The notes under the pieces: model-generated
What the model was told of the DNA's origin: nothing
Databases searched by the model: none
What the model saw: only the letters and a program-made list of their open reading frames with translations
Made by a program: the position numbers and the translations under genes
DNA from: Escherichia phage fKMPT1
Length of the DNA stretch: 64,000 nucleotides
Sequence record: PP620640
Direction: 5' to 3' (one strand)
Part shown: in pieces, positions 2,994 through 63,556 of the stretch
Position numbering within the stretch: the first letter of the stretch is position 1
Layout of the letters: the number at the start of each line of letters is the position of its first letter

Positions 2994-3323
2994 TTAATCT
3001 GCCAGCCTTAAATTAAAATTAACACCAAATTTTTCGCATACTTCCAACATATACTCAAGCGAGACATTACCAGTGAGGTGGATTATGTTGGATACGCGAG
3101 CCTGAGAGATACCACAAATTTTAGCAACTTGCTCTTGAGAAAGACCTCTGGATTTAATCTCTCTCTTAAAACGATGTGCAACGAAGTCTCTCATTTCGTC
3201 TACATCCATTGGACAAATATAACTCTCCATTTCAGCCTCTCTGTCAACCTCCCAATCATCTTGTGGAGCATAAGGGTCAAAAGTCTCATTCATCTTTCTT
3301 CTTCCGTTTGCGTGAAGTGTCAA
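2994..3323 (-). CDS. helix-turn-helix (XRE-like) DNA-binding protein
   Basis: SQEQVAKICGISQARVSNI HTH-like segment. Confidence 0.55.
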   Translation of the reverse strand: MTLHANGRRKMNETFDPYAPQDDWEVDREAEMESYICPMDVDEMRDFVAHRFKREIKSRGLSQEQVAKICGISQARVSNIIHLTGNVSLEYMLEVCEKFGVNFNLRLAD

Positions 3324-6472: not shown

Positions 6473-6976
6473 TCAAGATAGTTTTGCAAACTCTCCGTGG
6501 AGTTTTATAGCAGCTTCACAGTAAGCTTTATGGGCTTCTTCAGGTGTATCAAATAGACCAAGTGATGACCTTTTACCTCTGCATGTTATAGTCGCCCTCC
6601 ACTTATTGCAGTCTTTAAAGTAATGAACACCCTTGTAACCTGATTTGTTAGTCGTCTGCTTTACCCTGTTTTGAGCGTTTCCATATTTATCGGTCTCCCT
6701 AAGATTAGAAATGTGATTATTACTCCTGTTGCCATCAATGTGGTCTATCATCTTAGTAGGTTTGTAACCATGCTCAAACCACCAAACAAGGTGATGCACT
6801 TTTATTACAACATCTTTGAATTTAAGCACTTTGTAACCATAAGCATCACTTCCTCCGGCAACCTGACCAGCTTTAGCTTGTCTATTCCTATCATACCTGT
6901 TGTAGAAGACCCCTTTATCGGGGTCGTAAATAAAGTTGTCCTTGTAATCTTGAAGTGTTAGTGAACGGCGTACCAT
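6473..6976 (-). CDS. HNH homing endonuclease with AP2-like DNA-binding domain
   Basis: HLVWWFEHGY...DHIDGNRSNNHISNLRE HNH motif plus GYKGVHYFKDCNKWRA AP2-like segment; overlaps 3' end of the polymerase gene. Confidence 0.8.
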   Translation of the reverse strand: MVRRSLTLQDYKDNFIYDPDKGVFYNRYDRNRQAKAGQVAGGSDAYGYKVLKFKDVVIKVHHLVWWFEHGYKPTKMIDHIDGNRSNNHISNLRETDKYGNAQNRVKQTTNKSGYKGVHYFKDCNKWRATITCRGKRSSLGLFDTPEEAHKAYCEAAIKLHGEFAKLS

Positions 6977-7509
6977 GTTTTACCTACCTTACCAGTACCC
7001 GTGACAAGTGTCTTACTCTTTAATCCAAGATTTTTTGATGCTTGACCATACATTCTATCAATAATCTCCTTAACATCTGGTACAGCTTTTGTTGGAACCT
7101 CTAAAGAAACTTCGTCGTGGTAACTACAGACCCATCTAGCACCAATAGCTGGTTTCCTACCATTTAGAACTGTAAGTTTTCGCTCTGTTAACTCTCTATT
7201 AGCCAAGTTAATCCCCTCATTCTGTACCTGCGCCTCACTACCCATGAGTGTGAAATTCAATAACTTATGTGGAGATTTACACCATAACCACGCTCCAGCG
7301 ACTTTGATATAACCACCTTTGGCAATTGCAGAAGTTTTTCCAAAAACCTCTTCAAGTGCTTTCTTAGTTGCTTTGAAGTCTTCCTCTAACCTATCAAGCA
7401 GCTTTTTAATCTTAGGTAGACGTACAAAGTAAGTTTGTTTAGTCAATGCACCTTCTTCCGTAGATGATGCCTTGATAGTTTTTGCAAACTTCTCGTCTCC
7501 AGCACCGAA
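6958..7509 (-). CDS. DNA polymerase (family A), exon 2 / C-terminal segment
   Basis: Begins FGAGDEK (motif B continuation, compare T7 YGAGDEK), contains motif C YHDEV; track ORF starts at a TTG so no obvious independent start. Confidence 0.8.
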   Translation of the reverse strand, partial: FGAGDEKFAKTIKASSTEEGALTKQTYFVRLPKIKKLLDRLEEDFKATKKALEEVFGKTSAIAKGGYIKVAGAWLWCKSPHKLLNFTLMGSEAQVQNEGINLANRELTERKLTVLNGRKPAIGARWVCSYHDEVSLEVPTKAVPDVKEIIDRMYGQASKNLGLKSKTLVTGTGKVGKTWYAVH

Positions 7510-7785
7510 CAATACATCTGGTCAATACACTCGCAAGGTGTACCAGTTCTCTTATGAACTTCTCCGCATTTCTACGGAGTGTCGGACTATATCACGTAGC
7601 AGGATGCTACCGTTGCACTTGGGAATGGTCATTAGCTTACCACCCTACTCTACTCAGTTCATACGTTAAGTATGCTTTTCGATAGTCTCTGAACGTTCCT
7701 CTCAAGAGGCTTCGCTGCTGATTACCGTATCTTCTCAGACTTAGGCTTCCAGCAATTCACAACGTTTTACATGCGCCACTGACGC
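7510..7785 (-). ncRNA. putative group I intron interrupting DNA polymerase motif B
   Basis: 276-nt ORF-less insertion between ...KNGIY and FGAGDEK...; upstream exon ends in U, intron ends in G; GUAAA near intron 5' end could pair with exon UUUAU (P1). Confidence 0.45.
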
Positions 7786-9924
7786 ATAAATGCCATTTTT
7801 GGCTTTCTTACGACCTTTTGTAATCTCGTGGAGAAGTTCCTCATCCTGTGTATACCTACAACGAACAATATCTTCTTCCTTGTTCAGACCAAAGTAAATA
7901 CTGTTCAGTGTATGTGCATCAGTACCTGTGTATACTTCATAGAGGTCATTCTCAGCATCATAACGAAGGTACTTGTCAGTTTCTGGATTGAGGTACTTAT
8001 CAAGATGCTTGCAATAGTATCTTCCATCCTCTTGCTTGGTAAATTCTACTGACTCTTTACCTTGTGTTACCGCTTTAGTGAACTCTTCATCACCCATAAA
8101 GTTACAAAGAAGAACTAGCTGTGCTGAGTTTTGGTCTACAGAGATGATATCTGTCCCCTCTTCACAAGTCCACACCTCCCTCATAGGTGCTCCATAGACA
8201 GCAGCACCAGACGGTACGTTTACAATACCATATTGTGTCATACGTCCAGTTGAAGTACCAAATACCATTGCACCAGCACTAAGGCGACCATCAGGACGAA
8301 TCTGGTTCAACCAACCTTTTTCATCATCCTTTGAGTTCTCAATAGTTCTGCGTCGGTGCATCAAAGTATAGTACTTAGCAATCTTCTGTCCAAGCTCACC
8401 TTCAATCGTATCATAAGATGATTCAGTAAGTTTTGGTGAAGTACGGATTAAGCAAGGTTCAAGCAAATCTGTGTATTTCTTCACAGACCAGTTATGTTCA
8501 ATGTACTGGACACCTTCATGTTCAACATAACTCAAACCACACCTTTCAACCATCTCATCCCACTTAGGATGCTTTGTAATCATCTTTTTGTTGTCTTTGA
8601 AACGACAAACTTTGACAGGACGACCATCTGAGTCTTTCTTGTAGTTCCAGTCATCTGGAATCCAACCAACTGATTTCAAATAGTCTTTCACAACTGCTAC
8701 CTGAGTCATACGAGAAACTTCGAACTCAATTGGTGTATATGGTGCATCAATCAAACCTGTGTAGCGACTTGACTCAAGCTCAAAGTGGTTAACAACATGG
8801 CTGTTATAGTACTTCACAGTTTTAACTGTTTTTACTGGCTTCCAATCTTTGCACTTCTTACCAATCTTTGCATTCAACTCATTGCAAATTGCACGAGCAT
8901 CCTTCATTGCTACAAAACCTTCCTTGTACTCTTCACCAGTTACAGAGTTGGTTGGTGTATAGCAATTCCGCTTTTCAATGTTAAAAATCTTTGTAGTTGG
9001 CTTACCAAATGGCTTGATTTCATATGTCTGCATCTCACCGTTACGTACCTGCTGACGATACTTTGTCTTAGGGTACTTGGTAATTCTCTTCAGTCCATCT
9101 GCGTGACCAAATGCTTCAACATACTCATTCCAAGCTTTTGCAAACTCTTCTCCAGTGACTTTAACTTTGGTCTTGATAGTTGGAGGAAGATGTGGTTCAA
9201 CTTCTGAAGCAAGCTCATTAGTCAACTTGTCAAGTTCCTTTACATGGAACTCCATAAGCTCTTTATCAGCTTTCCAACCATTGATAGCTTGTTGACTCAT
9301 CCAGAAAGATGTTTCTTTAGCTCGCATGTAGGTTTCATAAGTATCTACGCCACACTTCTTCAGCTTGAGATATTCATTATCCAGTGCACGTTTAGTTTTG
9401 GCGTTAATACGGATATCTTCTACAACACGAGTGAAGATTTCTGCATTCCACACACCCCAATGTTCAATCTCTGGTTTACGTACACCGACACGAGCACCCC
9501 ATGCAGCCAAGCCATGAGCACCTTTATAGCCTTTTGGAGTTGGTCTATCCATCCATTGAACACGAGATTGGATAAGAGAATCCTGAAAGAAATTACTCCA
9601 CGGCTTACACTTTGGATTATCAAAGTTCCACAAATCAGGTGCAATGTGATTGAAAACCCACCAGTCATACCCCAGACCATTATGGATGCAAAGTCGTTTT
9701 GCCTTTAACGCAAACTCAACACCTTCACGCAAGCCACCCTTAATGTACTTGGTATACTTGTGACCGAGGATAGGCTCATCTGTAAAGACCCATACAGGTG
9801 GCTCTTCATCGTCAGATTTATAGTCTGCGAAAGCCATTACGTGTACTTTAGTGAACTCAAGGAGTAAACCATCAGTTTCTGTATCGCCAACTAAATGTAA
9901 GTTTTTAAAATCTACGTTTTCCAT
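7786..9924 (-). CDS. DNA polymerase (family A) with 3'-5' exonuclease domain, exon 1
   Basis: DTETDG exo motif; motif A VDQNSAQLVLL; start taken at MENVDF with upstream GGAG RBS; frame runs 14 codons into insertion before stop at 7741. Confidence 0.85.
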
Positions 9925-10181
9925 TTTTACTCCCTCTAAAATCATTAACCACATACATTACTGCAAAAAATTATAAAAAGCAAGTTGACAATGTACTTGA
10001 CAAGGTGTTAATCTTTGCGAAGTGGGTTTTTACTTAAAAGGTTACTTAACAGTTTAACTATACAGATACTTTAAAACTCTTAAAAGATTATTTAATAGTT
10101 TTTAAAAAGCTTTAAAGTATAACGTATAGAATACGTTAAGATAAAAGATTAAAACTTAATAGTTACTTAAAAGAGGCTTAC

Positions 10182-37096: not shown

Positions 37097-37120
37097 AGGC
37101 TGCTTCGGCGGCCTTTTTTA
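37097..37120 (+). terminator. rho-independent terminator
   Basis: ggctgc-ttcg-gcggcc hairpin + TTTTTT. Confidence 0.6.
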
Positions 37121-37180
37121 TTTGTATTTTGTGCAGAGTGCTGTATAATTGTTGTCACGATAAACTAAACAGGAGAACCA

Positions 37181-37729
37181 ATGAAGAATTTGATTCTAGG
37201 TTTGTGCTTAATGTTTACAGCACACTTATCTTATGCAGTTGACTGCCCAGAGCTATCAATTAGCCAAAAAGTAAACATGTTAAAAGCTTACCAGTATGGT
37301 GAGAACAACATGGGTAAAGGTTGGGGTATCACTCTAGCAGCTATAGCCTTACAAGAGTCAGAGTTAGGTCTGAAGGTAGAGAATAAAAAGACCCATGACT
37401 ATGGTATTTTCCAGAATCACTTGAAGACTGTTGTAAAGCGTAACAAAATCAGTCCTAATGTGGCTAAAAAGAAACTCTTAAAAGATTTTGACTATGCTGC
37501 AAAAGAGACACATAAAGAGCTTGAGTTTTGGACTAAGGTACATGGTCACCCGAAGTCAAAGAAGACTTTACAAAAAGTTTTGGCATCATATAATGCTGGG
37601 TATTCGTACAAAATCCCTAAAGCTAAGAAATACTCTCAAGATGTCTATAACAATATGAAAGTTATTGCTCAATGTGAATTTGCAACAAACATTTCTAAGG
37701 TAAATCATGAAAAAATTAAGAAAGTCTGA
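37181..37729 (+). CDS. secreted lytic-transglycosylase-like protein
   Basis: signal peptide MKNLILGLCLMFTAHLSYA; LAAIALQESELG resembles SLT catalytic region. Confidence 0.45.
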   Translation: MKNLILGLCLMFTAHLSYAVDCPELSISQKVNMLKAYQYGENNMGKGWGITLAAIALQESELGLKVENKKTHDYGIFQNHLKTVVKRNKISPNVAKKKLLKDFDYAAKETHKELEFWTKVHGHPKSKKTLQKVLASYNAGYSYKIPKAKKYSQDVYNNMKVIAQCEFATNISKVNHEKIKKV

Positions 37730-40728: not shown

Positions 40729-41514
40729 ATGGGTATTGTAAAAATCATCAATGGTGATATCTTTGCAGCATTTGATAAAGGTAAGTTTGACATCATCGGT
40801 CACGGTTGCAACTGTATGAACTTAATGGGTGCAGGTATCGCTGACAAGATTTCTAAACTTTACCCAAAAGCATATGAGACCGATACAGAAGTTTATCTGT
40901 ATGCAGGTGGTATAGGTCACAAACCCTGTGAAAATTTACTAGGCAATTTCTCTGTAGCACGTTTAGAACAAGGCCGTATAGCTAACCTTTACACTCAGCT
41001 TAAGACTGGTAAAGATGCCCGATACAGTGCTTTAGAGTCATCTTTGAAACAGCTTAACAGATACTGTGAAGTTAACCAGTTGAAGAAAGTTGGTTTACCT
41101 ATGATTGGTGCAGGTATCGGTGGACTGGACCCTCAAGCCGTTACCGTTATCATTAATCAGGTGATGAAGAGTGTAGATGTGTATCTGTATGTCTACGAAG
41201 GGGAGATGTACCACGAGTTACGCTCAGGTTGGAAGAACTACTGTGAACCAGAATACTTTGCAGGTGTAGTAACGTTCACTGATGATGCAGTTACCCTCTT
41301 CAGACGAAGAAAAGGTAAGATACATCAAAGTAACCCTCCGGTTGAAAAGATGTCTCTAAGTAACGCTCTAGTTACCCACCTGTCGAAGAGCAATCACAGA
41401 ATTGCCGTGACATTTGGTAGCGATGCAGATACATATATCTATGCAAGAACTGATGAGGATGTTGAGGAAATTTTCTCTTCACCAGAAGTTACCTTCTTAG
41501 ACGCAAAGAACTAA
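40729..41514 (+). CDS. macro-domain (ADP-ribose binding/hydrolase) protein
   Basis: N-terminal IINGDIF...DIIGHGCNCMNLMGAGIADKI resembles macro-domain Gly-rich ADP-ribose pocket. Confidence 0.6.
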   Translation: MGIVKIINGDIFAAFDKGKFDIIGHGCNCMNLMGAGIADKISKLYPKAYETDTEVYLYAGGIGHKPCENLLGNFSVARLEQGRIANLYTQLKTGKDARYSALESSLKQLNRYCEVNQLKKVGLPMIGAGIGGLDPQAVTVIINQVMKSVDVYLYVYEGEMYHELRSGWKNYCEPEYFAGVVTFTDDAVTLFRRRKGKIHQSNPPVEKMSLSNALVTHLSKSNHRIAVTFGSDADTYIYARTDEDVEEIFSSPEVTFLDAKN

Positions 41515-41544
41515 GAAACTCTGTATAATATTCACAATAGACTA

Positions 41545-41590
41545 AGCCTTCCTTATCTGGTAAATTTTTTAGGTAAGGAGGGCTTTTTCA
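41545..41590 (+). terminator. rho-independent terminator
   Basis: ccttcctta...taaggaggg hairpin + TTTTT. Confidence 0.55.
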
Positions 41591-41768
41591 TTTTAGAATT
41601 GTGCAGGTAGAGTTCTGGACAGAAATCTGTAGAGAGAATTTTGAACTCCAAAGAGAAAATTCATTTTCAAACTGTGCAGGTAATCTCCAAAGAGCTTTTT
41701 CATTTTCAAAACGTGCAGAGAAAAATCAGGTCGGGCAAGAAAAATCATTTTCGAATTGTGCAGGTAGG
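41588..41768 (+). repeat. four direct repeats (iteron-like) cattttcNaaNtgtgcaggta
   Basis: copies at about 41588, 41659, 41700, 41745 with variable spacers; followed by AT-rich tract 41915-41945. Confidence 0.6.
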
Positions 41769-41945
41769 TGGGTGCAGGTGGGGATGTCGCCATTTCTCAC
41801 AAGGCTACCACATCTGAAAAGAAAAGTCAACAGAAAAATTTGTAGCGGATTGAAAAATAATTCTTGATTGTAGTTCTGTTTTGTGGTAGTCGCGTGCGCC
41901 CGTTTCATTACAGTTTTTTGAAAAAAAATATTTTTAAAATTTTTA

Positions 41946-41974
41946 TTGACTCCTCGAACGGGTTTTTATAGTAT
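41946..41974 (+). promoter_or_regulatory. sigma70-like promoter feeding the small-ORF array
   Basis: TTGACT - 17 nt - TAGTAT. Confidence 0.5.
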
Positions 41975-41980
41975 TTGCAT

Positions 41981-42035
41981 CAACGGGGAGGGAATGAACT
42001 TCCCACTAACTAACCTTAAACTAGGAGATTCTAAA
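41981..42035 (+). repeat. type-B conserved leader (hairpin + Shine-Dalgarno); copies also at 44043, 44906, 46128, 46696, 47291
   Basis: caacGGGGAGGgaatgaCCTTCCCCactaagtaaaacccttaaactaggagattcaaaaATG repeated 6 times. Confidence 0.8.
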
Positions 42036-42242
42036 ATGATTTACAGCCGTGAATTGATGGTCACAACTAACGTTAACACAAAGGTAAAACGTTTTTATAT
42101 GCAAGTATGCGGCGCATGGCGTAGAATATCAGAATCTGATTATTGCAACTATGTAGAAACGGCTATTAATTCTAATTGCTATCTTACAAAGAATACAAAG
42201 CGACATATAAAACAGACAGCGGTTTACTATTACGATATATAA
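42036..42242 (+). CDS. cassette small protein 1
   Basis: 68 aa; ATG after conserved leader; track ORF 41946 is a spurious upstream extension. Confidence 0.55.
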   Translation: MIYSRELMVTTNVNTKVKRFYMQVCGAWRRISESDYCNYVETAINSNCYLTKNTKRHIKQTAVYYYDI

Positions 42243-46095: not shown

Positions 46096-46188
46096 ACAAG
46101 CCGGATAAAAGCCTGTAAATTGTCAATCAACGGGGAGGGGATGACCTTCCCCCACTAAGTAAAACCCTTAAACTAGGAGATTCAAAAA

Positions 46189-46530
46189 ATGGCTTATGTA
46201 ACCGTCATTACTGATAAAGCTGGGTCATCTTGGTCAACTCAAGTAAGTGATAAGATGACACCTATGCAGTGCCTAAAATACTTTGAGCAATGGAATAAAG
46301 GCGAGGATGTAAGCCCCTTCCAAGTGATGCAGATTATCCATACAGACAACGAAGGGAATAAAACGACCTTGAACAGTGAATACTACGCAAGCCGTTTTGA
46401 AACGAGAAGTAAAACGATGAAACTATTACGTGAATCCGGTTATTCTCATATTGCTGCGCTAATCTGGGATGACTTGCTAAAAAATCAGCGTATCAGCTAC
46501 GTAAAACCTGAAAAAATATTCATCAGTTAA
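46189..46530 (+). CDS. cassette protein 11
   Basis: 113-aa ORF behind type-B leader. Confidence 0.6.
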   Translation: MAYVTVITDKAGSSWSTQVSDKMTPMQCLKYFEQWNKGEDVSPFQVMQIIHTDNEGNKTTLNSEYYASRFETRSKTMKLLRESGYSHIAALIWDDLLKNQRISYVKPEKIFIS

Positions 46531-47281: not shown

Positions 47282-47349
47282 ATTGTCAATCAACGGGGAG
47301 GGAATGACCTTCCCCACTAAGTAAAACCCTTAAACTAGGAGATTCAAAA

Positions 47350-47598
47350 ATGGCAACTATCCGCGCAACTGTTAACGAATTCGGCTTCTACTCTCTGGAC
47401 GTTAAATTTGACCTTGTAGGTACTGGTAACGCCTTTGAAATGGTGAAAGGCCTTATCAGTCAGACCATTAAAGACTATAACCCTTCTGATGAGTTCTGGG
47501 AGGAAACAAAACAGGAAGTTTTTACGCATGGACACACCTATCACTATTGGGGTGAAAAAATTGTCTCCCTGTACTATGATAAAGAAGGCACTAACTAA
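47350..47598 (+). CDS. cassette small protein 13
   Basis: 82-aa ORF behind type-B leader. Confidence 0.6.
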   Translation: MATIRATVNEFGFYSLDVKFDLVGTGNAFEMVKGLISQTIKDYNPSDEFWEETKQEVFTHGHTYHYWGEKIVSLYYDKEGTN

Positions 47599-47599
47599 T

Positions 47600-49330
47600 C
47601 AACGCAACGGGGCTAAATAGCCCCAGATACCTTTACAGCCCCTTTATATTGATTCGATAGAATCTATCTCATAGGGGCTTTTTTACATCTCTGTAATAGC
47701 CTCTATACAATCCCTTTCCTTCCCTTTCCAGAATCTATCCCACTAATTCGATAGAATCTTACCAGACCTTAAAAGTAATAACTCTATAGCTTACTCTATA
47801 GCCCCTTATCAAATCAACTTAAATAAAAGCCCATAACCCGAAAGGGAAGGGCAACCACTAAAACGCTATATAAAGCTCTATAACAGCCTTATCAACCTAA
47901 CTTAAGGGATTGCATTACCTCACCCTTAAAAGCCCTTTATAAAGCTTTCTAGGGGGGCTTAAAAGAGTCTTAAAAGAATCTTATAAGGGTGTAAGCTTTA
48001 TCATCTCGTTAGCTATCCTGTGAATAACTAAAAAGGGCTTGTTAGTGTCTTAAAAGTATGTTATAGGGGGCTGTGAAGTTACTTCAAAGTTACGTGAAAG
48101 AGGCTATAAAGTTACGTAAATGCTAGCCCCCTTAACATTTTCTTAACAATTTCTTAACAATCCCTACATAGTTATGCTTGTTAGCAACTTGTTAGCCCCT
48201 TGTTAAATCTCTGTTAAGACCACGTAAAAGCCTTGTAAGAGTCTTTGGCATAGCCTTTAAAGCCCCTGTAAAGCTCTATAAAGAGGTGTCTGTATAGTTG
48301 GGGTGTAATTACTAGGAAGAGGCTTAAAAGAGCTTACAAGGGGCTATAGAGAGCTTTTAAGAGGTATGTTTAAAGAATCACTAAGAGGGAAAGGGAACTA
48401 TAGACCAAGAGATAGTGACCATGTTAATAGCTTGTTAAAAAGATTAAACACTTGTTAGGAATTTGTTAATTATCTTAACAAAATAACTCTTAAAAATTAA
48501 CTTGTTAGCTCTTATTAGTCATCTGTTAAGACTCTGTAAAGCCTATGTATCAACTGTTAAGAAACTGTTACCCTCTTGTTAAAACTGTTAAGAAACTGTT
48601 AAGACCTCTGAAGAGATGTTAAAAAGGTGTAGTATCTGTTAAGAGATTGTTAAGGATATTTTAAAATTCTGCAAAGGGGATGTTACAGGGATGTTAAGGG
48701 CTACCAAGCAGATATACATCTTCTACAGATATTTTTCAGTTCCTTCAAAGACCCTAAAAAATGACTTGATAGTCCTATTTTATAAAAATTTTAAAATTCT
48801 GAATAATTACCTAGACAGTCTTCTAAAAATACAGGCATAAACAGGCTTATAAGATACCTTGTTAGTACCGTGTTAGACCTTGTGAGATAAGGCCTGTAAA
48901 GATATTCCTGTTAAGTTTGTTAAAACAGTCTATATAGAGGCTTAGTAATACCTAGTGAACACCTATAGAGGGTAACATATCTAACCTAGAGATTAAGAGG
49001 TGTATAGGAGCTTCTAAGAGGGTGTAGAGAGATGGTTAAGGTGATTGTATAGGCTGTTAAGAAGGCTTGTTAGAGGGCTTGTTAGAGGGCTATTTAGAAG
49101 GTTTATACAGAGGAGCTATTAAGACCACTAGATAGAGACTAAGATACTATATAGTACTATATAACTATATATATAGAGAGTAAGCTTAAGAAGGATGTTA
49201 AGAAGGATAGATATTTTATTCACATATGATGGTGACCCAGAGGTTGGGACAACCGATAAAATTTTATAAAAATTATAAATTTCGTAAAATTTACTCAATA
49301 AAAAGCCCCCAATTAAGGAGGCTCTTAAGA
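47600..49330. repeat. ORF-free repeat-dense region (TGTTAAG / CTTGTTAG motif clusters)
   Basis: no ORF of 60 aa or more on either strand for 1.7 kb; dozens of short direct repeats; lies between convergent transcription units. Confidence 0.7.
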
Positions 49331-58350: not shown

Positions 58351-58427
58351 CTCTGTTTAGCTCAGCTTGGTAGAGCGTTCCGTTTGGGGCGGTAAGGCCG
58401 GAGGTTCAAGTCCTCCAACAGAGACCA
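58351..58427 (+). tRNA. tRNA-Pro (anticodon TGG)
   Basis: hand-folded cloverleaf, GGTTCAAGTCC T-arm, encoded CCA. Confidence 0.7.
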
Positions 58428-58434
58428 AATTAAT

Positions 58435-58512
58435 GTTCCAGTAGACAAAATGGTAAAGTCACCACTCTTTCAAAGTGGATATTTGAGGGTTCAAATCCCT
58501 TCTGGAACGCCA
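58435..58512 (+). tRNA. tRNA-Glu (anticodon TTC)
   Basis: perfect acceptor and anticodon stems, encoded CCA. Confidence 0.7.
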
Positions 58513-58603
58513 GTTTTGACAGAAGACCAATTGCAGCAAACTTAATCTTATTCATCTGACACGAAATCGGACAAAGAAGAGATTTGGTCTGGTCATTAAG
58601 AAT

Positions 58604-58680
58604 TGCGGGTATAGAGAAAGGGCGTCTCACATGTCTCATTAGCATGGTATCGGCAGGTTCGACTCCTGCACCCGCCTCCA
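58604..58680 (+). tRNA. tRNA-Met (anticodon CAT), 1:72 mismatch
   Basis: T-arm and anticodon arm clear; acceptor 5' boundary uncertain. Confidence 0.55.
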
Positions 58681-58763
58681 AATTTACAGAAGACCGTTTA
58701 CAGCAATATTTATTAAATTTTTAGCGGAAAAATTGAAAGATACGGTCTGGTAATACTAAACAT

Positions 58764-58840
58764 GGTTAGGAAGCACATAAGGTATGTGCGGTCGCCTGTT
58801 AAGCGAATGGCACAGGGTTCGAATCCCTGACTAACCGCCA
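58764..58840 (+). tRNA. tRNA-Asn (anticodon GTT)
   Basis: cloverleaf with perfect T-stem, CCA encoded. Confidence 0.65.
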
Positions 58841-58909
58841 AATTTAGGAGAGAAGCGATTGCTCACCGATTTGTAAGGTGCAAGTCCTTAGCCTGAATAG
58901 AAATTAAAT

Positions 58910-58997
58910 GTGTCGTTATCCCGTAGATGGTAGCGGTGGGGACTGTAAATCCCTTGTCATTGAGACTCGGTAGGTTCGACTCCTACACGGCACACCA
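58910..58997 (+). tRNA. tRNA-Tyr (anticodon GTA), long variable arm
   Basis: 88 nt type II structure, anticodon loop CTGTAAA. Confidence 0.7.
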
Positions 58998-59003
58998 AAT
59001 AAA

Positions 59004-59081
59004 GGTTATGTAGTTTAATCTGGTTAAAATACTCCCCTGTCACGGGAGATGATGAGGGTTCGAATCCCTTCGTAACCGCCA
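59004..59081 (+). tRNA. tRNA-Asp (anticodon GTC)
   Basis: anticodon arm ctccc-CTGTCAC-gggag. Confidence 0.7.
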
Positions 59082-59537
59082 AATTATAATAAGTATTTCA
59101 AAATGATGTTTTGAGAGGGCTATTTAGCCCCTCCCTTAAAGAGTTCTTACGAGTATTCTTTAAAGGAGCAGAAGACCAAATTCAGCAAGAACGTATGAAA
59201 TTTCAAGCCAATTTAATTTTGAAAATTTAAAACTTGGTCTGGCTCAACAAATTTACAGAAGACCGTTTACAGCAAAACTTAAACAATCTATTTCTCGGTA
59301 AAGAAAAGGCGAAGGTTCGATTCCTTCACTCGGCAGATGTCGAGTTGGTGTAATGGTAGCACTTAAGATGATAAACAACGGTCTGGTAATTGTCTTTGCA
59401 GTAGCTTATGTGGCTAATTATGTCGTCCCATGAGTGCCGATGAATTTCCTTAGCATGATTCTAGATTAGCTTAATAGGAAATGACTCTACAGACCCTTTA
59501 GCAAGGTCTGCGTAGGTTACTGCAAAGATAATTTAAT

Positions 59538-59613
59538 GGAAGTGTAGCAGAATGGTGATGCGGCAGACTTTTAATCTGACAGGCGATGGGTTCGAATCCC
59601 TCCACTTCTACCA
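59538..59613 (+). tRNA. tRNA-Lys (anticodon TTT)
   Basis: cloverleaf; weak T-stem; paralogous to 60859-60934. Confidence 0.55.
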
Positions 59614-59617
59614 ATAT

Positions 59618-59694
59618 GGTTCAGTCGCAGATAAGGTAATGCAGGGGTTTCATAAGCCCTATGAATGTGGGTTCGATTCCCATCTGAACCTCCA
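59618..59694 (+). tRNA. tRNA-Met/Ile2 (anticodon CAT)
   Basis: perfect acceptor stem, anticodon loop TTCATAA. Confidence 0.65.
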
Positions 59695-59696
59695 AT

Positions 59697-59771
59697 TGTG
59701 GGTTAGCATAAATGGTAATGCAAACGGCTGATAACCGTTAGAAGAGGGTTCGATACCCTCACCTACAACCA
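59697..59771 (+). tRNA. tRNA-Ile (anticodon GAT)
   Basis: anticodon arm aacgg-CTGATAA-ccgtt perfect. Confidence 0.7.
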
Positions 59772-59786
59772 ATTTCAATAAAGTTG

Positions 59787-59815
59787 TTGACATTGAGATG
59801 TGACTACTTTATAGT
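59787..59815 (+). promoter_or_regulatory. sigma70-like promoter inside tRNA region
   Basis: TTGACA - 17 nt - TATAGT. Confidence 0.55.
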
Positions 59816-60109
59816 AACTGAAAATGATTCAGCATATGTATAATTCAAACACCAATACATGAGCGTTAGACGTAACACAATGTGGGGAAATTTGTTGTAC
59901 ATATTCTGAATAGTTTTCGTTGCGTAGCGTCTATTTTGCAAAGTTAAAATAAATGCAAACGACAATGTTTTTCTGGCAGTAGCTTGATAGGCTAAACACC
60001 AGTGAGGTCTTCCAACCCCTCATCAAAGAATTTGGCGTACTAGCCCACGGTATGATTAATAAGGTGGGCATCTTTAAGGGCTTTCTAAGAGAGTCTTTAA
60101 AGATAATTA

Positions 60110-60191
60110 CGGGGCGTATCTCAGCTGTCTTCTAAACAGCCGTTAACCGAGTAAGTGGAGTATGCGGGTTCGAGTCCTGCCGCCTCGACCA
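60110..60191 (+). tRNA. tRNA-like gene, non-canonical (no D-arm; anticodon-like hairpin with TCT)
   Basis: perfect acceptor and T-arm with CCA; internal hairpin gctgt-CTTCTAA-acagc; only 7 nt where D-arm should be. Confidence 0.4.
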
Positions 60192-60334
60192 ATTTAGTTA
60201 GCAGATTACTTAGACGACCTTATCGGGTCTTCCTGTAGGGAGGTGGTCTGTATCTCATGTTTTCCAGAACATGTAAATAATCTGAGAAGGGGCTTTACAG
60301 TGTTGTGAAAATACGGTAAGCTTCGAACTATAAT

Positions 60335-60417
60335 GTGGGACGATGTTAAGACTCTAAGGCATGAGCAACGGCTTCCAACACCGTTTCAAAGGGGTTCAAA
60401 TCCTCCGTCCCATGCCA
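60335..60417 (+). tRNA. tRNA-like gene, isotype undetermined (9-nt loop hairpin containing CCA/TCC)
   Basis: acceptor/T-arm/CCA canonical; internal hairpin aacgg-CTTCCAACA-ccgtt; D region irregular. Confidence 0.4.
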
Positions 60418-60430
60418 AAGTCTTATTAGG

Positions 60431-60518
60431 GGTAGGTAGCGGCTAATGGTAGCCAAACTGTCTTGAAAACAGTTGCCACTGTAGAGATACGGTGAGGGTT
60501 CGACTCCTTTACTTACCG
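60431..60518 (+). tRNA. tRNA-Ser (anticodon TGA), long variable arm; CCA not encoded
   Basis: anticodon arm actgt-CTTGAAA-acagt perfect; 20-nt variable arm. Confidence 0.65.
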
Positions 60519-60773
60519 CCTAATAAGATTTACACCGTCCATGCTCGCTCGCATTTTCGGTTTATCCCTCGTGTTGTCGTACACTTTGATAAAGCACCTA
60601 GTAGGTGTCACGGAGAAGAGATAATATCAAGCTCTCCAAAGGTTCTAGTCACCGGATTAAACAAGACTATGCAAAGACCTATTTAGGTCTTTTTAGAGGG
60701 CTTCTAAGGTTATTACAGCTTGTTGTGGAACCTTGTTGCTTAGGTTCTTAGAAGTTCTCTAAAAAGATTTAAT

Positions 60774-60851
60774 GGGAGATTGACGGTAATTGGTAAACCT
60801 ATCTCGCTTAGAACGAGATGTTTGAGGGTTCGAATCCCTTGTCTCCTACCA
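60774..60851 (+). tRNA. tRNA with Leu anticodon TAG, short variable arm
   Basis: anticodon arm tctcg-CTTAGAA-cgaga perfect; type I length; A73. Confidence 0.55.
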
Positions 60852-60858
60852 AATTAAT

Positions 60859-60934
60859 GCAGGTGTAGCAAAATGGTTATGCGGCTGACTCTTAATCAGT
60901 AAGACGATGGGTTCAATTCCCTCCACCTGTACCA
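60859..60934 (+). tRNA. tRNA-Lys (anticodon CTT)
   Basis: anticodon loop CTCTTAA; encoded CCA. Confidence 0.6.
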
Positions 60935-60940
60935 AACATT

Positions 60941-61016
60941 GGGGTCATAGTTTATATGGTTAAAATTCGAGTTTTGCAAACTTGGGAACTGAGTTCAATT
61001 CTCAGTGACTCCACCA
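60941..61016 (+). tRNA. tRNA-Ala (anticodon TGC)
   Basis: G3:U70 wobble in acceptor stem, anticodon loop TTTGCAA, perfect T-stem. Confidence 0.75.
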
Positions 61017-61022
61017 ATTAGT

Positions 61023-61097
61023 GCATCCATAGTTTAAACGGGAAAATTACAGTCTTCCAAACTGAGGTTGAGGGTTCGATTCCCTCTGGATGCTCCA
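61023..61097 (+). tRNA. tRNA-Gly (anticodon TCC)
   Basis: perfect acceptor stem, U73 discriminator, anticodon loop CTTCCAA. Confidence 0.7.
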
Positions 61098-61103
61098 AAC
61101 AAT

Positions 61104-61180
61104 GCTGCTTTCGTATAATTGGCTATTACACATCCCTTGTAAGGATGGAGATGCGGGTTCAAGTCCTGTGAGCAGCACCA
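61104..61180 (+). tRNA. tRNA-Thr (anticodon TGT)
   Basis: anticodon arm catcc-CTTGTAA-ggatg perfect. Confidence 0.7.
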
Positions 61181-61275
61181 ATTTAGAGGTCAAGTGAAAG
61201 ACCGCTGGTGTCAACTGAAGACCGTAACAAATTCCACGGAGTTGAGTTAGCGGCACAACTTCAGACCTCTTTCAT

Positions 61276-61350
61276 ACTCGCTTAGTTTATATGGTAAAAC
61301 ATCACCCTTACAAGATGAAGAAAAAGGTTCAAGTCCTTTAGTGAGTACCA
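61276..61350 (+). tRNA. tRNA-Val (anticodon TAC)
   Basis: perfect D- and T-stems, anticodon loop CTTACAA. Confidence 0.65.
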
Positions 61351-61351
61351 T

Positions 61352-61429
61352 GTTCCAGTATCCCAATTGGCAGAGGATGCAAGCTCAAACCTTGTACTAG
61401 TGACGGTTCGAATCCGTCTTGGAACACCA
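61352..61429 (+). tRNA. tRNA with Leu anticodon CAA, short variable arm
   Basis: anticodon arm gcaag-CTCAAAC-cttgt; type I length; A73. Confidence 0.55.
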
Positions 61430-61543
61430 ATTTTAGGAGAGCACTATGAGTGATAAGTCAATAGCAAAAAAGTTTAGAGCGTCATACCTAAACAGACGTA
61501 AAAACAAAGATTGTGAAAAACTGTATGGTGTTCTTGTAGGTAA

Positions 61544-61619
61544 GCAGGATTAGTTCAAATGGATAGAGCAGCAGTCTACGAAGCTGTTAATAGGGGTTCG
61601 AATCCCTTATCCTGCGCCA
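61544..61619 (+). tRNA. tRNA-Arg (anticodon ACG)
   Basis: perfect acceptor stem; anticodon loop CTACGAA. Confidence 0.65.
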
Positions 61620-61638
61620 ATTTAAAGAGGCTATTTAG

Positions 61639-62196
61639 ATGAGATATTTGAAGTATGCTTCATGGATTTTCTTAGCTTTGTTAGAGCCATTTGCAGCAAT
61701 CTTAGCAGTTATCTTAGCACCTTTCGTGGTTCCATTCTACAGTGAGAAGAAAGGACATCTACCTTTCGGCTTCAGATGGATGGAGACATACGACAACCCA
61801 ATTGATGGTGATGAAGGTCATGTCGAACGATGGGCTAAGATTAGAAAGATTGGTAAGCTGGGTGTCTACATGCAGAGAGTTGGATGGCTCTGGAGAAACA
61901 AAGCTTATAACTTCTCTTACCATGTATTAGGAAGAGATGTAAAAGATGTTACTAAGTGGAAAGGCAATATCAACGTAAGTTCTAACCCTGAAGATAATCA
62001 GACAGGTTATCTCCTAATGTGGAACAGTAATGCTTGGGGATTATTCGCTTTTATCCCATCAATTAAAGTCTTTGGTAAACAATTCTACTGGAGAATTTAT
62101 ATTGGGTGGAAGCTAAAAAGTGTTGTCCCAGAAGAAAGAGCATTCTCAAGGGAAAGAGTTATGTTGGCATTCTTTATTCATCCACTAAGAAAGTAA
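61639..62196 (+). CDS. membrane protein embedded in tRNA array
   Basis: 185 aa; N-terminal hydrophobic helix, aromatic-rich C-terminus, AAAGAGG RBS. Confidence 0.55.
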   Translation: MRYLKYASWIFLALLEPFAAILAVILAPFVVPFYSEKKGHLPFGFRWMETYDNPIDGDEGHVERWAKIRKIGKLGVYMQRVGWLWRNKAYNFSYHVLGRDVKDVTKWKGNINVSSNPEDNQTGYLLMWNSNAWGLFAFIPSIKVFGKQFYWRIYIGWKLKSVVPEERAFSRERVMLAFFIHPLRK

Positions 62197-62204
62197 AGAT
62201 TTAA

Positions 62205-62280
62205 AGGGGATTAGTTTACAAGGTTAAAACCTCGGTCTTTGAAATCGAAGAAGTTGGTTCAATTCCAACATCCCCCGCCA
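62205..62280 (+). tRNA. tRNA-Gln (anticodon TTG)
   Basis: perfect D-, anticodon and T-stems; 1:72 mismatch. Confidence 0.65.
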
Positions 62281-62282
62281 AT

Positions 62283-62361
62283 GCTCCATTACTCCAATTG
62301 GCAGAGAGGCCAGACTTAAAATCTGTGTTATGTATCGGTTCGAATCCGATATGGAGTACCA
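62283..62361 (+). tRNA. tRNA with Leu anticodon TAA, short variable arm
   Basis: anticodon loop CTTAAAA; perfect T-stem; A73. Confidence 0.55.
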
Positions 62362-62366
62362 AATTT

Positions 62367-62442
62367 AGCGGTATAGCATAACTGGCAATGCAGCAGTCTC
62401 TGAAGCTGTCCTATTAAGGTTCAAATCCTTATGCCGCTGCCA
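62367..62442 (+). tRNA. tRNA-Gln (anticodon CTG)
   Basis: perfect D- and T-stems; anticodon loop CTCTGAA. Confidence 0.65.
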
Positions 62443-62473
62443 CTTCTAAGGGTTCTTACGAGAGTCCTTAAAT

Positions 62474-62549
62474 GTGGCCTTATCATAAACGGTAATGACC
62501 CATGCTGTGAACATGGTCTATACGGGTTCAAATCCCGTAGGTCACCCCA
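62474..62549 (+). tRNA. tRNA-His (anticodon GTG)
   Basis: all four stems near-perfect; C73 discriminator. Confidence 0.75.
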
Positions 62550-62554
62550 ATTTA

Positions 62555-62631
62555 TAGTCCAAGTAGCTTATATGGTTAAAGCGCGTGTCTGAAAAACATG
62601 AGAAGAGGGTTCAAATCCCACTGGACTACCA
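62555..62631 (+). tRNA. tRNA-Phe (anticodon GAA), boundaries approximate
   Basis: anticodon arm cgtgt-CTGAAAA-acatg; acceptor/D junction irregular. Confidence 0.5.
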
Positions 62632-62646
62632 ATTTCAAAGGTGCTT

Positions 62647-63382
62647 AATGAAAGAGATGACAGAACAAGGTAAGGAGATTTTTAATCTCTTAAAAACTGG
62701 TAAAGGGTTTTCTAACCCCCTTATTACTGGTGCAGCAGTTCTCGGTGGAACCGTAGCTGCCTCTACATCACTTGTAAGCTCTATTAGCTCTGTAACAGAC
62801 CCTACAATAAAAGATAAGCTTGTTGCTGCTGGGCTTACAACAGTTCTGCTTAGCAGCTTTACAACGAGTCTGACAAGCACTACAGCAACTACTAAGACCC
62901 TAACAGACTATGGTCAAAAGTCCATTGATGAGTTTTCATCACGTATGCAGGTAGCAAAAGGTTATTCTAATGCTATGGGTGCAGCAGGTGAACAAGTTGG
63001 CTGTACACCATTTAGTGGTATTATGGGTGTTGCTACAGAGTATGGTCAAAAAGCTATGGATACGATTAACAGCGCACTAGATGGCGTTAATGATGTATTA
63101 AGCGACTTACAAGATGCTATTGACAAAGGTCTTGATACTGTTTCTGATTTAGCTAACCAAGCTGTTAGCAAGATTAATGAAGGTATCTCGAAGATTACAG
63201 CTTATGCAGATGAAGTTGTGCAGATGATTGAAGAAGAAGCTGCCCTTATTGCAGAGTACCTTAAAACGAATATCAATGGGTTCTTAGCAGGTATCTTACC
63301 AGACTGGTTTGATGATGCTTGTAAAACTGGTGTGATTGATACTATTGCAACACCAGAAATGAAGAACGCATTACAGAAATAA
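62647..63382 (+). CDS. hypothetical Ser/Thr/Ala-rich protein
   Basis: about 245 aa from ATG after AAAGG; track ORF start 62585 overlaps tRNA-Phe and is unlikely. Confidence 0.5.
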
Positions 63383-63383
63383 C

Positions 63384-63476
63384 GGAAGATTAACCCTAAA
63401 AGGTAAGGGAGCAGTTTGCTAAACTGCCAGTAGCTGAGAAATCGGTGTACCAGTTCAAGTCTGGTATCTTCCTCCA
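63384..63476 (+). tRNA. tRNA-Ser (anticodon GCT), long variable arm
   Basis: 93 nt; anticodon arm gcagt-TTGCTAA-actgc perfect; T-stem perfect; CCA encoded. Confidence 0.7.
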
Positions 63477-63480
63477 ATTT

Positions 63481-63556
63481 GAATCCGTGACAGAAATGGC
63501 TATGTGCCTGTCTGCAAAACAGGTTTATAAGGGTTCGAGTCCCTTCGGATTCTCCA
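63481..63556 (+). tRNA. tRNA-Cys (anticodon GCA)
   Basis: perfect acceptor stem, U73, anticodon arm cctgt-CTGCAAA-acagg. Confidence 0.7.

What the first reader, a model, noticed from the sequence alone, without database searches (positions are those of the whole stretch)
41588..41945. Iteron-like direct repeats plus AT-rich tract upstream of the cassette array
Four copies of cattttcNaaNtgtgcaggta with unequal spacers, then a GC-rich run, then about 30 nt of almost pure A/T, then a sigma70-like promoter. Repeats plus an AT-rich unwinding-like element is the classical architecture of a replication origin or a repressor/activator operator array.
Basis: partly seen in the sequence, partly recalled or inferred. 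Interest (0 to 1): 0.55.

Follow-up and report, generated by a model that had tools for sequence, protein, structure and literature searches.

The report
Conserved protein-binding repeat array in Felix O1-like phages
Four copies of a two-part DNA motif sit just after a terminator in this Felix O1-like phage and are kept in three phage genera, so they are almost certainly binding sites for an unidentified DNA-binding protein, while the A/T-rich tract beside them is best read as part of a strong early promoter, not as an unwinding element.

Summary
Four same-strand copies of TCATTTT-N2-AA-N2-GTGCA(GGTA) lie at 41588, 41661, 41700 and 41745. They follow the terminator of the macro-domain gene. 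A 25-nt GC-rich run, a 32-nt A/T tract and the promoter TTGACT-N17-TAGTAT come after them.

The window is a Felixounavirus, 100% identical to Salmonella phage fBSPA4. The array is the only such cluster in the 87-kb genome. It is kept as 3-4 copies in Felixounavirus, Mooglevirus and Kolesnikvirus. The half-sites TCATTT and GTGCA are conserved while the 7-nt gap and the spacers drift.

The array is not coding, not a structured RNA, and not at the genome ends. The experimentally mapped terminal repeat of a relative maps 6.4 kb downstream.

The A/T tract matches the promoter UP-element consensus at 13 of 14 positions and lies 148 nt from the last repeat.

One further motif copy (37118-37135) overlaps the -35/spacer of a conserved sigma-70 promoter after rIIB. 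That favours a transcription-factor reading.

No binder or replication initiator was identified, and the replisome is T7-like.

Verdict: an undescribed operator/iteron-like binding array. I put transcriptional control at about 0.4 and a replication origin at about 0.3. Interest is moderate.

The parts
41544..41585 (+). Intrinsic terminator hairpin of the macro-domain gene (Felix O1 't13'). Its T-tract (41586-41593) runs into repeat 1.
   Evidence: 17-pair stem followed by a T run; Felix O1 Table 2 lists the orthologous t13
41588..41609 (+). Repeat 1: TCATTTTAGAATTGTGCAGGTA
   Evidence: position-weight-matrix score 44 bits
41661..41682 (+). Repeat 2: TCATTTTCAAACTGTGCAGGTA. This copy is missing in the BPS17L1/Si3 lineage.
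   Evidence: 37 bits
41700..41721 (+). Repeat 3: TCATTTTCAAAACGTGCAGAGA
   Evidence: 38 bits
41745..41766 (+). Repeat 4: TCATTTTCGAATTGTGCAGGTA
   Evidence: 39 bits
41767..41815 (+). Lineage-variable spacer. Here it is G-rich and carries an extra GTGCAGGT half-site (41772-41779). In 14 of 32 relatives it is instead a C-rich polypyrimidine tract.
41822..41913 (+). Block conserved in Felixounavirus and Mooglevirus but not Kolesnikvirus. It includes a possible degenerate fifth unit (TCAACAGAAAAATTTGTAG, 41827-41845). Function unknown.
   Evidence: (family D1, fifth copy at 62% identity)
41914..41945 (+). A/T tract, read as the UP element (positions -59 to -38 and beyond) of the promoter that follows.
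   Evidence: 13 of 14 consensus positions; 3% GC; invariant columns
41946..41974 (+). Sigma-70-type promoter TTGACT-N17-TAGTAT, the first promoter of the terminal early-gene block.
   Evidence: conserved in all three genera
41975..42038 (+). 5' leader with a small hairpin (41985-42006), a Shine-Dalgarno sequence and the ATG at 42036. The same leader recurs at 46122 and 47285.
37118..37149 (+). Outlying fifth site, TTATTTGTATTTTGTGCA, directly after the rIIB terminator. It overlaps the -35/spacer of a promoter whose TATAAT (37144-37149) lies exactly 8 nt downstream.
   Evidence: 11.4 bits against a shuffle maximum of 9.3; 18-24 bits in other lineages; half-sites and TATAAT conserved while N7 and N8 vary

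Best explanation
The four repeats are binding sites on double-stranded DNA for one sequence-specific DNA-binding protein. It is probably phage-encoded and is not yet identified.

Each site is asymmetric and has two parts, TCATTT and GTGCA, about one helical turn apart. That geometry fits a monomer with two DNA-reading heads, or a head-to-tail oligomer.

The array sits immediately after the terminator that closes the rIIB-to-macro-domain operon. It lies 180-360 bp upstream of the first strong promoter of a 6-kb block of small early genes that runs to the right end of the genome.

My preferred reading is transcriptional control at this operon border. The bound protein would act as a roadblock or insulator behind the terminator, and/or would set the activity of neighbouring promoters. 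The same protein would act directly on the promoter after rIIB, where a single site overlaps the -35/spacer.

The A/T tract and the sigma-70 promoter form a separate element: a strong early promoter with its UP element.

Shown: the repeats, their conservation, their uniqueness, their non-coding and non-RNA nature, their position relative to the terminator, the promoter and the genome end, and the fifth site on a promoter. Inferred: protein binding, the identity and origin of the binder, and the regulatory outcome.
For: - Motif copies are exact and statistically far beyond chance, and they are confined to this locus.
- There are 3-4 same-orientation copies in Felixounavirus, Mooglevirus and Kolesnikvirus. 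TCATTT and GTGCA are invariant while N7 and the spacers vary. Core columns are 95% conserved against 74% for the other array columns in 32 unique sequences.
- Not structured RNA: folding z-scores are +1.1 and +1.4, with no Rfam match reaching a family's gathering score.
- Not coding: no reading frame stays open across relatives.
- A two-copy pattern scan of viral, bacterial-genome and metagenome collections finds the array only on Ounavirinae-type contigs.
- The best non-array match in the whole genome is in an intergenic region, directly after another terminator, at a fixed 8 nt from a perfect TATAAT. Its half-sites are conserved across five lineages while N7 and N8 change.
- The A/T tract matches the UP-element consensus at 13 of 14 positions.
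Against: - The array is 180-360 bp from the nearest good promoter, which is unusually far for a classical operator.
- Four strong tandem sites at a single place in the genome are more typical of once-per-genome functions such as an origin.
- No cognate regulator was found. The only recognisable DNA-binding protein, an HTH_3 protein at 2994-3323(-), has no detectable Kolesnikvirus homologue, although Kolesnikvirus has the array.
- The promoter-overlapping fifth site scores weakly in this window's own lineage (11.4 bits) and is absent in Kolesnikvirus.
- No promoter class carries the motif.
Confidence: 0.4

Rival explanations
1. Replication origin. The repeats are iterons bound by an unrecognised phage initiator. 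The nearby, very easily melted A/T tract and/or transcription from the adjacent strong promoter opens the duplex for loading of the T7-gp4-like primase-helicase. The outlying site after rIIB would be an autoregulatory operator.
For: - Four same-orientation repeats of about 22 bp at one unique, non-coding locus, conserved across the subfamily.
- The A/T tract is among the 0.04% least stable 30-mers in the window.
- A strong promoter is adjacent.
- From my own knowledge, unique direct-repeat arrays in phages have most often proved to be origins (lambda ori, SPP1 oriL/oriR, lactococcal phage origins, T4 oriE).
Against: - The A/T tract is 148 nt from the last repeat rather than next to it, and is explained by the UP element.
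- No DnaA boxes (up to 1 mismatch) or IHF consensus sites in 41515-42036.
- No initiator-type domain in the 30 proteins scanned.
- The replisome is T7-like, with a family A polymerase and a gp4-like primase-helicase (PMC3185647). From my own knowledge, T7 initiates from promoters without iterons.
- Repeat spacings (37-77 bp) are not helically phased.
- A leftward fork from here would run head-on into about 31 kb of co-oriented genes.
- GC skew shows no switch here, although skew follows gene direction and is uninformative.
Confidence: 0.3
2. A DNA-entry or genome-architecture signal like the injection stop signal of phage T5. The array would mark the inner border of a terminal block of early genes that enters the cell first, and would pause DNA transfer until those genes are expressed.
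For: - The array lies 6.4-7.1 kb from the terminal-repeat homologue at 48134-48707, and about 8 kb from the PhageTerm-defined end in the Kolesnikvirus SPARTY.
- In both cases only small early genes, transcribed towards the end, lie in between.
- T5 has the same layout: a terminus, pre-early genes, a terminator, then a 1-kb non-coding region rich in direct repeats that is annotated as the injection stop signal.
Against: - No report of two-step DNA transfer in Felix O1-like phages was found in the library searched.
- It is unknown which end enters first.
- In T5 the block lies inside a 10-kb terminal repeat, whereas here the repeat is about 0.6 kb.
- T5's region has DnaA boxes and this one has none.
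- The resemblance is architectural only.
Confidence: 0.08
3. An evolutionary leftover. The array would be a tandemly amplified, decayed copy of the terminator-promoter-gene-start module found after rIIB, with no present function of its own.
For: - Copy 1 follows a terminator exactly as the rIIB site does.
- In some lineages a second motif-like sequence lies 73 nt downstream of the rIIB site, at the start of the next gene. That is close to the copy 1 to copy 2 distance in the array (73 nt in most lineages, 75-77 nt in the rest).
- The flank of that second sequence (CCAATGAAGAAATTCATTTT) resembles the array unit (CCAAAGAGAAAATTCATTTT).
Against: - The half-sites are kept across three genera while everything around them has diverged.
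- The array sites score higher (37-44 bits) than the supposed parent site (11-24 bits).
- Kolesnikvirus has the array but not the rIIB-type site.
Confidence: 0.1
4. A packaging or terminus element: a terminase recognition site or part of the terminal repeat.
For: - Several public records begin or end near this region.
- One record (BoyaciRG1) carries the array in a 1232-bp duplication at both ends.
Against: - The terminal repeat determined by Bal31 digestion and run-off sequencing in UAB_Phi87 maps to 48134-48707.
- SPARTY's PhageTerm ends are about 8 kb from the array.
- The TH10 end overlap is only 77 nt, which I read as an assembly overlap. The BoyaciRG1 duplication starts and ends inside genes.
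- The terminus region has its own, different repeat family.
Confidence: 0.02

Closest known systems
Iteron-type replication origins (lambda ori; plasmid origins such as P1 oriR, F ori2, R6K gamma; T4 oriE). Comparison from my own knowledge.
   Same: Several same-orientation repeats of about 20 bp at one non-coding locus. Each site is asymmetric and two-part, as for monomeric Rep proteins that read two successive major grooves. A GC-rich and a very A/T-rich segment lie in the neighbourhood.
   Different: The A/T tract is 148 nt away and doubles as a promoter UP element. There is no initiator gene in cis and none was recognised among the proteins scanned. There are no DnaA or IHF sites. The spacings (37-77 bp) are long and unphased. 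The phage has a T7-type replisome.
Asymmetric phage and bacterial operator sites (P1 C1 operators; arrays of direct repeats bound by P2 Cox or 186 Apl; MarA/SoxS 'marbox'). Comparison from my own knowledge.
   Same: A non-palindromic two-part recognition sequence with an A/T-rich gap, direct-repeat arrangement, and one copy overlapping a promoter's -35/spacer.
   Different: The main array is 180-360 bp from the nearest good promoter. The motif matches the marbox consensus at only about 9 of 14 specified positions by my own count. No regulator has been identified.
Injection stop signal region of phage T5 (AY543070, 9140-10149)
   Same: A non-coding stretch rich in direct repeats, just past a terminator, at the inner edge of a block of early genes next to a genome end.
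   Different: T5's region is 1 kb, lies within a 10-kb terminal repeat, holds several repeat families plus DnaA boxes, and belongs to a proven two-step DNA transfer. None of this is known for Felix O1-like phages.
Strong sigma-70 promoters with UP elements (rrnB P1; T4 and T5 early promoters). This applies to the A/T tract plus promoter part of the finding.
   Same: TTGACT-N17-TAGTAT, with 13 of 14 UP-consensus positions at -59 to -38. Downstream genes are early in Felix O1.
   Different: The transcription start has not been mapped. The two other promoters of the same class in the early block lack such a tract because they sit inside coding sequence.

Membership tests
Iteron-type replication origin | Three or more direct repeats of about 17-22 bp in one orientation | tested here: met
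   Four copies of 22 nt; 3-4 copies in relatives
Iteron-type replication origin | An A/T-rich unwinding element directly flanking the iterons | tested here: inconclusive
   A very unstable 32-nt A/T tract exists, but it is 148 nt from repeat 4 and fits the UP-element consensus of the next promoter
Iteron-type replication origin | A cognate initiator protein encoded by the replicon | tested here: not met
   No Rep, O or DnaD-type domain in the 30 proteins scanned around the array, the early block and the replication cluster. The PHROG-annotated relative E9 lists none in the 49-kb stretch fetched. The scan did not cover the whole proteome.
Iteron-type replication origin | Host-factor sites (DnaA boxes, IHF) | tested here: not met
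   None in 41515-42036
Iteron-type replication origin | Replication actually starts there | not testable with these tools
   This needs marker-frequency sequencing or an origin-cloning test. GC skew follows gene direction and shows no switch here.
Transcription-factor operator array | A conserved recognition sequence with variable surroundings | tested here: met
   TCATTT and GTGCA are invariant across three genera while N7 and the spacers vary
Transcription-factor operator array | Sites overlap or adjoin a core promoter | tested here: inconclusive
   Not for the array, which lies at -180 to -360 from the promoter at 41946. Yes for the outlying site at 37118, 8 nt upstream of a conserved TATAAT.
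Transcription-factor operator array | An identified cognate regulator | tested here: not met
   The only candidate is an HTH_3 protein. It is absent from Kolesnikvirus by tblastn, and its type normally binds palindromes (my own knowledge).
Sigma-70 promoter with UP element (A/T tract plus promoter) | -35 and -10 hexamers with a 17-nt spacer, and an A/T-rich segment at -40 to -60 matching the UP consensus | tested here: met
   TTGACT/TAGTAT match 9 of 12 positions. UP consensus 13 of 14. Conserved in three genera.
Direct terminal repeat / packaging site | Coincides with the physical genome ends | tested here: not met
   The UAB_Phi87 terminal repeat maps to 48134-48707. SPARTY's ends are about 8 kb away.
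Structured non-coding RNA | Stable or covarying secondary structure, or a match to a known family | tested here: not met
   Folding z-scores +1.1 and +1.4. The only Rfam matches are far below each family's gathering score, with E-values of 0.46 and above.
Protein-coding gene (ORFs 41601-41867 on + and 41593-41793 on -, annotated in some records) | Reading frame kept open in relatives | tested here: not met
   The window's + frame is open in only 2 of 32 relatives. No frame is conserved. Repeat spacings in Kolesnikvirus (37, 37, 39 nt) are out of frame.
T5-type injection stop signal | A repeat-rich non-coding region at the inner border of the terminal early block | tested here: met
T5-type injection stop signal | Two-step DNA transfer that pauses at the signal | not testable with these tools
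   No report was found in the library searched

The most novel reading that the evidence does not exclude
The array is the Ounavirinae counterpart of the T5 injection stop signal. On this reading, Felix O1-like phages first deliver only the terminal 6-8 kb block of small early genes, up to and including its UP-element promoter. Transfer then pauses at the protein-bound repeat array until early proteins are made.
Probability: 0.08. Interest if true: 0.75.

Novelty: new member of a known kind. Interest (0 to 1): 0.42.

Why it matters
Felix O1-like phages are widely used for Salmonella typing, biocontrol and therapy. Their origin of replication, their temporal transcription control and their DNA-entry mode are all unknown. 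The Felix O1 genome paper says explicitly that temporal regulation is not understood.

This array is the clearest conserved cis-element in the subfamily outside the genome ends. It gives a concrete handle on those questions. It can serve as bait to find its binding protein, as a defined target for deletion, and as a place to look for a coverage peak.

It is also relevant to engineering, because it borders the variable early-gene block where genes are swapped between relatives.

Tried and rejected
1. Genome terminus or packaging site. I suspected this because several public records start or end nearby. It is rejected: the experimentally determined UAB_Phi87 terminal repeat maps to 48134-48707, SPARTY's PhageTerm ends are about 8 kb away, the TH10 overlap is only 77 nt and reads as an assembly overlap, and the BoyaciRG1 1232-bp duplication starts and ends inside genes.
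2. Structured RNA. Rejected.
3. Coding ORFs across the repeats, as annotated in some records. Rejected.
4. Host DnaA or IHF sites. None found. By eye I also compared the motif with the consensus sites of MarA, OmpR, Fis, CRP, sigma-54, sigma-E and Tus, and with P1 RepA iterons. Only partial resemblances appeared, and none is claimed.
5. GC skew as an origin indicator. It follows gene orientation, with a minimum near 10 kb and a maximum at the terminus, so it is uninformative for this locus.
6. A promoter class carrying GTGCA upstream of the -10. Only the single rIIB-proximal case exists.
7. The binder. Pfam and PHROG scans of the 10 early-block proteins, the 10 proteins of the rIIB-to-macro operon and 10 replication-cluster proteins gave only one HTH_3 protein and a Macro domain. 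The HTH_3 protein is missing from Kolesnikvirus.
8. The array outside the subfamily. Scans of bacterial genomes and metagenomes gave only coding or other unrelated tandem repeats.
9. Literature. No paper in the held library mentions these repeats, an origin, or iterons in Felix O1-like phages. The Bas63 knockout screen gave no usable data for intergenic regions. Two searches returned only irrelevant papers.

Full report
**What the window is.** The 701 bases around the finding are 100% identical to Salmonella phage fBSPA4. They are 85-96% identical to some 220 Felix O1-like phages. The finding lies in a 521-nt non-coding gap (41515-42035). On one side is a macro-domain gene (40729-41514; Pfam Macro), which is gene 13 of Felix O1. 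On the other is the first of a series of small genes of unknown function.

**Checking the observation.**
- Four same-strand copies lie at 41588-41609, 41661-41682, 41700-41721 and 41745-41766, with start-to-start spacing of 73, 39 and 45 nt.
- The degenerate pattern has four exact matches in 64 kb, all here. Shuffled sequence never reaches the observed count.
- The remaining 23 kb of the genome has none.
- A position-weight matrix scores the four sites at 37-44 bits. The maximum in shuffled sequence is 9.3 bits.
- After the repeats come a 25-nt run of 68% GC, a 32-nt tract with a single G, and TTGACT-N17-TAGTAT.
It is terminator t13 of the Felix O1 paper.

**Conservation.**
- An alignment of nine phages from Felixounavirus, Mooglevirus and Kolesnikvirus places the invariant columns of this otherwise diverged gap on the repeats.
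- Every phage has three or four copies in the same orientation. Spacings are 73-77/39-41/45 nt, or 37/37/39 nt in Kolesnikvirus.
- The conserved core has two parts, TCATTT and GTGCA, separated by seven variable, A/T-rich bases. The centres of the two parts are roughly one helical turn apart.
- In 32 unique sequences the core columns are 95% conserved. The other columns of the array are 74% conserved.
- A two-copy pattern scan of IMG/VR, of 185,579 bacterial and archaeal species genomes, and of JGI metagenomes recovers the array only on Ounavirinae-type contigs. The other hits are coding or otherwise unrelated tandem repeats.

**What it is not.**
- It is not a structured RNA. Both strands fold worse than shuffled controls, and no Rfam family reaches its gathering score.
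- It is not coding. The ORFs that some records annotate here are open in only a few relatives, and the Kolesnikvirus spacings are out of frame.
- It is not the genome end. The 608-bp direct terminal repeat that Bardina et al. determined by Bal31 digestion and run-off sequencing for UAB_Phi87 (PMC4837284) aligns to window 48134-48707. That is 6.4 kb downstream of the last repeat.
- In the Kolesnikvirus SPARTY, the record was re-oriented to PhageTerm-defined ends (PMC8928762). There the array lies about 8 kb from the end.
- Two public records that seemed to place ends here look like assembly effects.
- The terminus region has its own, different repeat family with an 11-nt period, TGTTAAGA or CTTGTTAG.

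**The A/T tract.**
- The tract ends exactly at the -35 hexamer. Positions -59 to -38 match the UP-element consensus, as I recall it from Estrem et al. 1998, at 13 of 14 specified positions.
- It is conserved together with the promoter in all three genera.
- It is 148 nt from the last repeat, not adjacent to it as in classical iteron origins.
- It is also among the least stable 0.04% of 30-mers in the window, so a melting role cannot be excluded. The promoter reading accounts for it fully.
- The transcribed leader (hairpin plus Shine-Dalgarno sequence) recurs at 46122 and 47285.
- Genes 16 and 20-22 of this block are maximally expressed 5 min after infection in Felix O1.

**A fifth site elsewhere.**
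- The best non-array match in the whole 87-kb genome is TTATTTGTATTTTGTGCA at 37118-37135 (11.4 bits, above every shuffle). It again lies directly after an intrinsic terminator, that of rIIB.
- A perfect TATAAT lies 8 nt downstream of it.
- In five lineages TTATTT, GTGCA and TATAAT keep their exact spacing, while the intervening N7 and N8 change. In Mooglevirus the site scores 24 bits.
- The site therefore covers the -35/spacer of a conserved sigma-70-type promoter.
- In some lineages a second motif-like sequence lies 73 nt further on, at the start of the next gene. That is close to the copy 1 to copy 2 distance in the array (73 nt in most lineages, 75-77 nt in the rest).
- Kolesnikvirus lacks these extra sites.
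- This is the only evidence found that discriminates between the models. It points to a protein that acts on transcription, or to an initiator that also regulates a promoter.

**Searching for the binder and for origin features.**
- The replisome is T7-like: a family A polymerase and a gp4-type primase-helicase (PMC3185647).
- Pfam and PHROG scans of 30 proteins found no initiator-type domain and only one DNA-binding protein. The 30 comprised the early block, the operon between the two terminators, and hypothetical proteins of the replication cluster. The one DNA-binding protein is an HTH_3 protein at 2994-3323(-).
- That protein has no detectable homologue in Kolesnikvirus, so it is unlikely to be the universal binder.
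- There are no DnaA or IHF sites in the gap.
- GC skew only mirrors gene direction.

**Position in the genome.** In both genera where the ends are known, the array marks the inner border of a terminal 6-8 kb block of small early genes transcribed towards the genome end. Phage T5 has the same layout. It has pre-early genes next to the end that enters first, then a terminator, then a 1-kb non-coding region rich in direct repeats that is annotated as the injection stop signal. This is an architectural analogy only.

**Verdict.**
- The array is best described as a conserved, undescribed set of binding sites for an unidentified sequence-specific DNA-binding protein.
- I favour transcriptional control at the operon border (about 0.4) over a replication origin (about 0.3).
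- A T5-like entry signal (about 0.08), a functionless relic (about 0.1) and other readings follow.
- The 'unwinding element' is better read as the UP element of the first early promoter.
- The literature I could search is silent on these repeats.
- It is a new member of a known kind of element, of moderate interest, and it makes open questions about Felix O1-like phages directly testable.

Noticed in passing
window 47600-49300: A non-coding region of about 1.7 kb around the terminal-repeat homologue (48134-48707). It is packed with dozens of TGTTAAGA / CTTGTTAG units, often 11-12 nt apart. This is a second repeat family unrelated to the array, and it is probably the packaging or end-associated element.
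   Followed up: partly
window 37098-37210: The rIIB terminator is followed by a motif copy that overlaps a promoter (TATAAT at 37144-37149). In some relatives a second motif-like sequence lies 73 nt downstream, inside the signal-peptide coding start of the next gene, a weak SLT-like protein (PHROG 600).
   Followed up: yes
window 7562-7844 (-): A group I intron (Rfam RF00028, 59.9 bits) lies in the DNA polymerase region. The polymerase reading frame appears split here (ORFs 7741-9954 and 6958-7512 on the minus strand), whereas the relative E9 has one uninterrupted 2.7-kb gene.
   Followed up: no
window 41975-42038, 46122-46190, 47285-47352: A near-identical 5' leader (CAACGGGGAGGG..CTTCCCC hairpin, then CCTTAAACTAGGAGATTC-AAAA-ATG) is reused in front of at least three early genes. 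Two of these copies follow TTGAC-N17-TAAATT promoters embedded in the end of the preceding gene.
   Followed up: partly
window 41767-41815: The spacer between repeat 4 and the conserved block exists in two unrelated versions among relatives. One is G-rich, as here (10 of 32 sequences). The other is a C-rich polypyrimidine tract, CCCCTCTCCCCCTCTTACTCCCC (14 of 32). Kolesnikvirus also has a C-rich stretch.
   Followed up: partly
window 41826-41831 (minus strand): The minus-strand hexamer TTGACT is invariant in Felixounavirus and Mooglevirus. A weak -10-like hexamer, TAGCCT or TAAGAG, lies 17 nt downstream of it. This may be a weak leftward promoter reading into the array. It could equally be part of a degenerate fifth repeat unit.
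   Followed up: partly
window 58351-63556: A cluster of 25 tRNA genes on the plus strand.
   Followed up: no
public records MT446388.1 (L002/L003) and OR125561.1 (L004/L005): TH10 has a 77-nt overlap between its record ends. BoyaciRG1 has a 1232-bp duplication at both ends that starts and ends inside genes. Both look like assembly or circularisation artefacts rather than true terminal repeats.
   Followed up: yes
window 2994-3323 (-): This is the only recognisable DNA-binding protein found (HTH_3, Cro/C1 type). It is present in Felixounavirus and Mooglevirus but not detectable in Kolesnikvirus. That distribution matches the promoter-overlapping rIIB site, not the array.
   Followed up: partly
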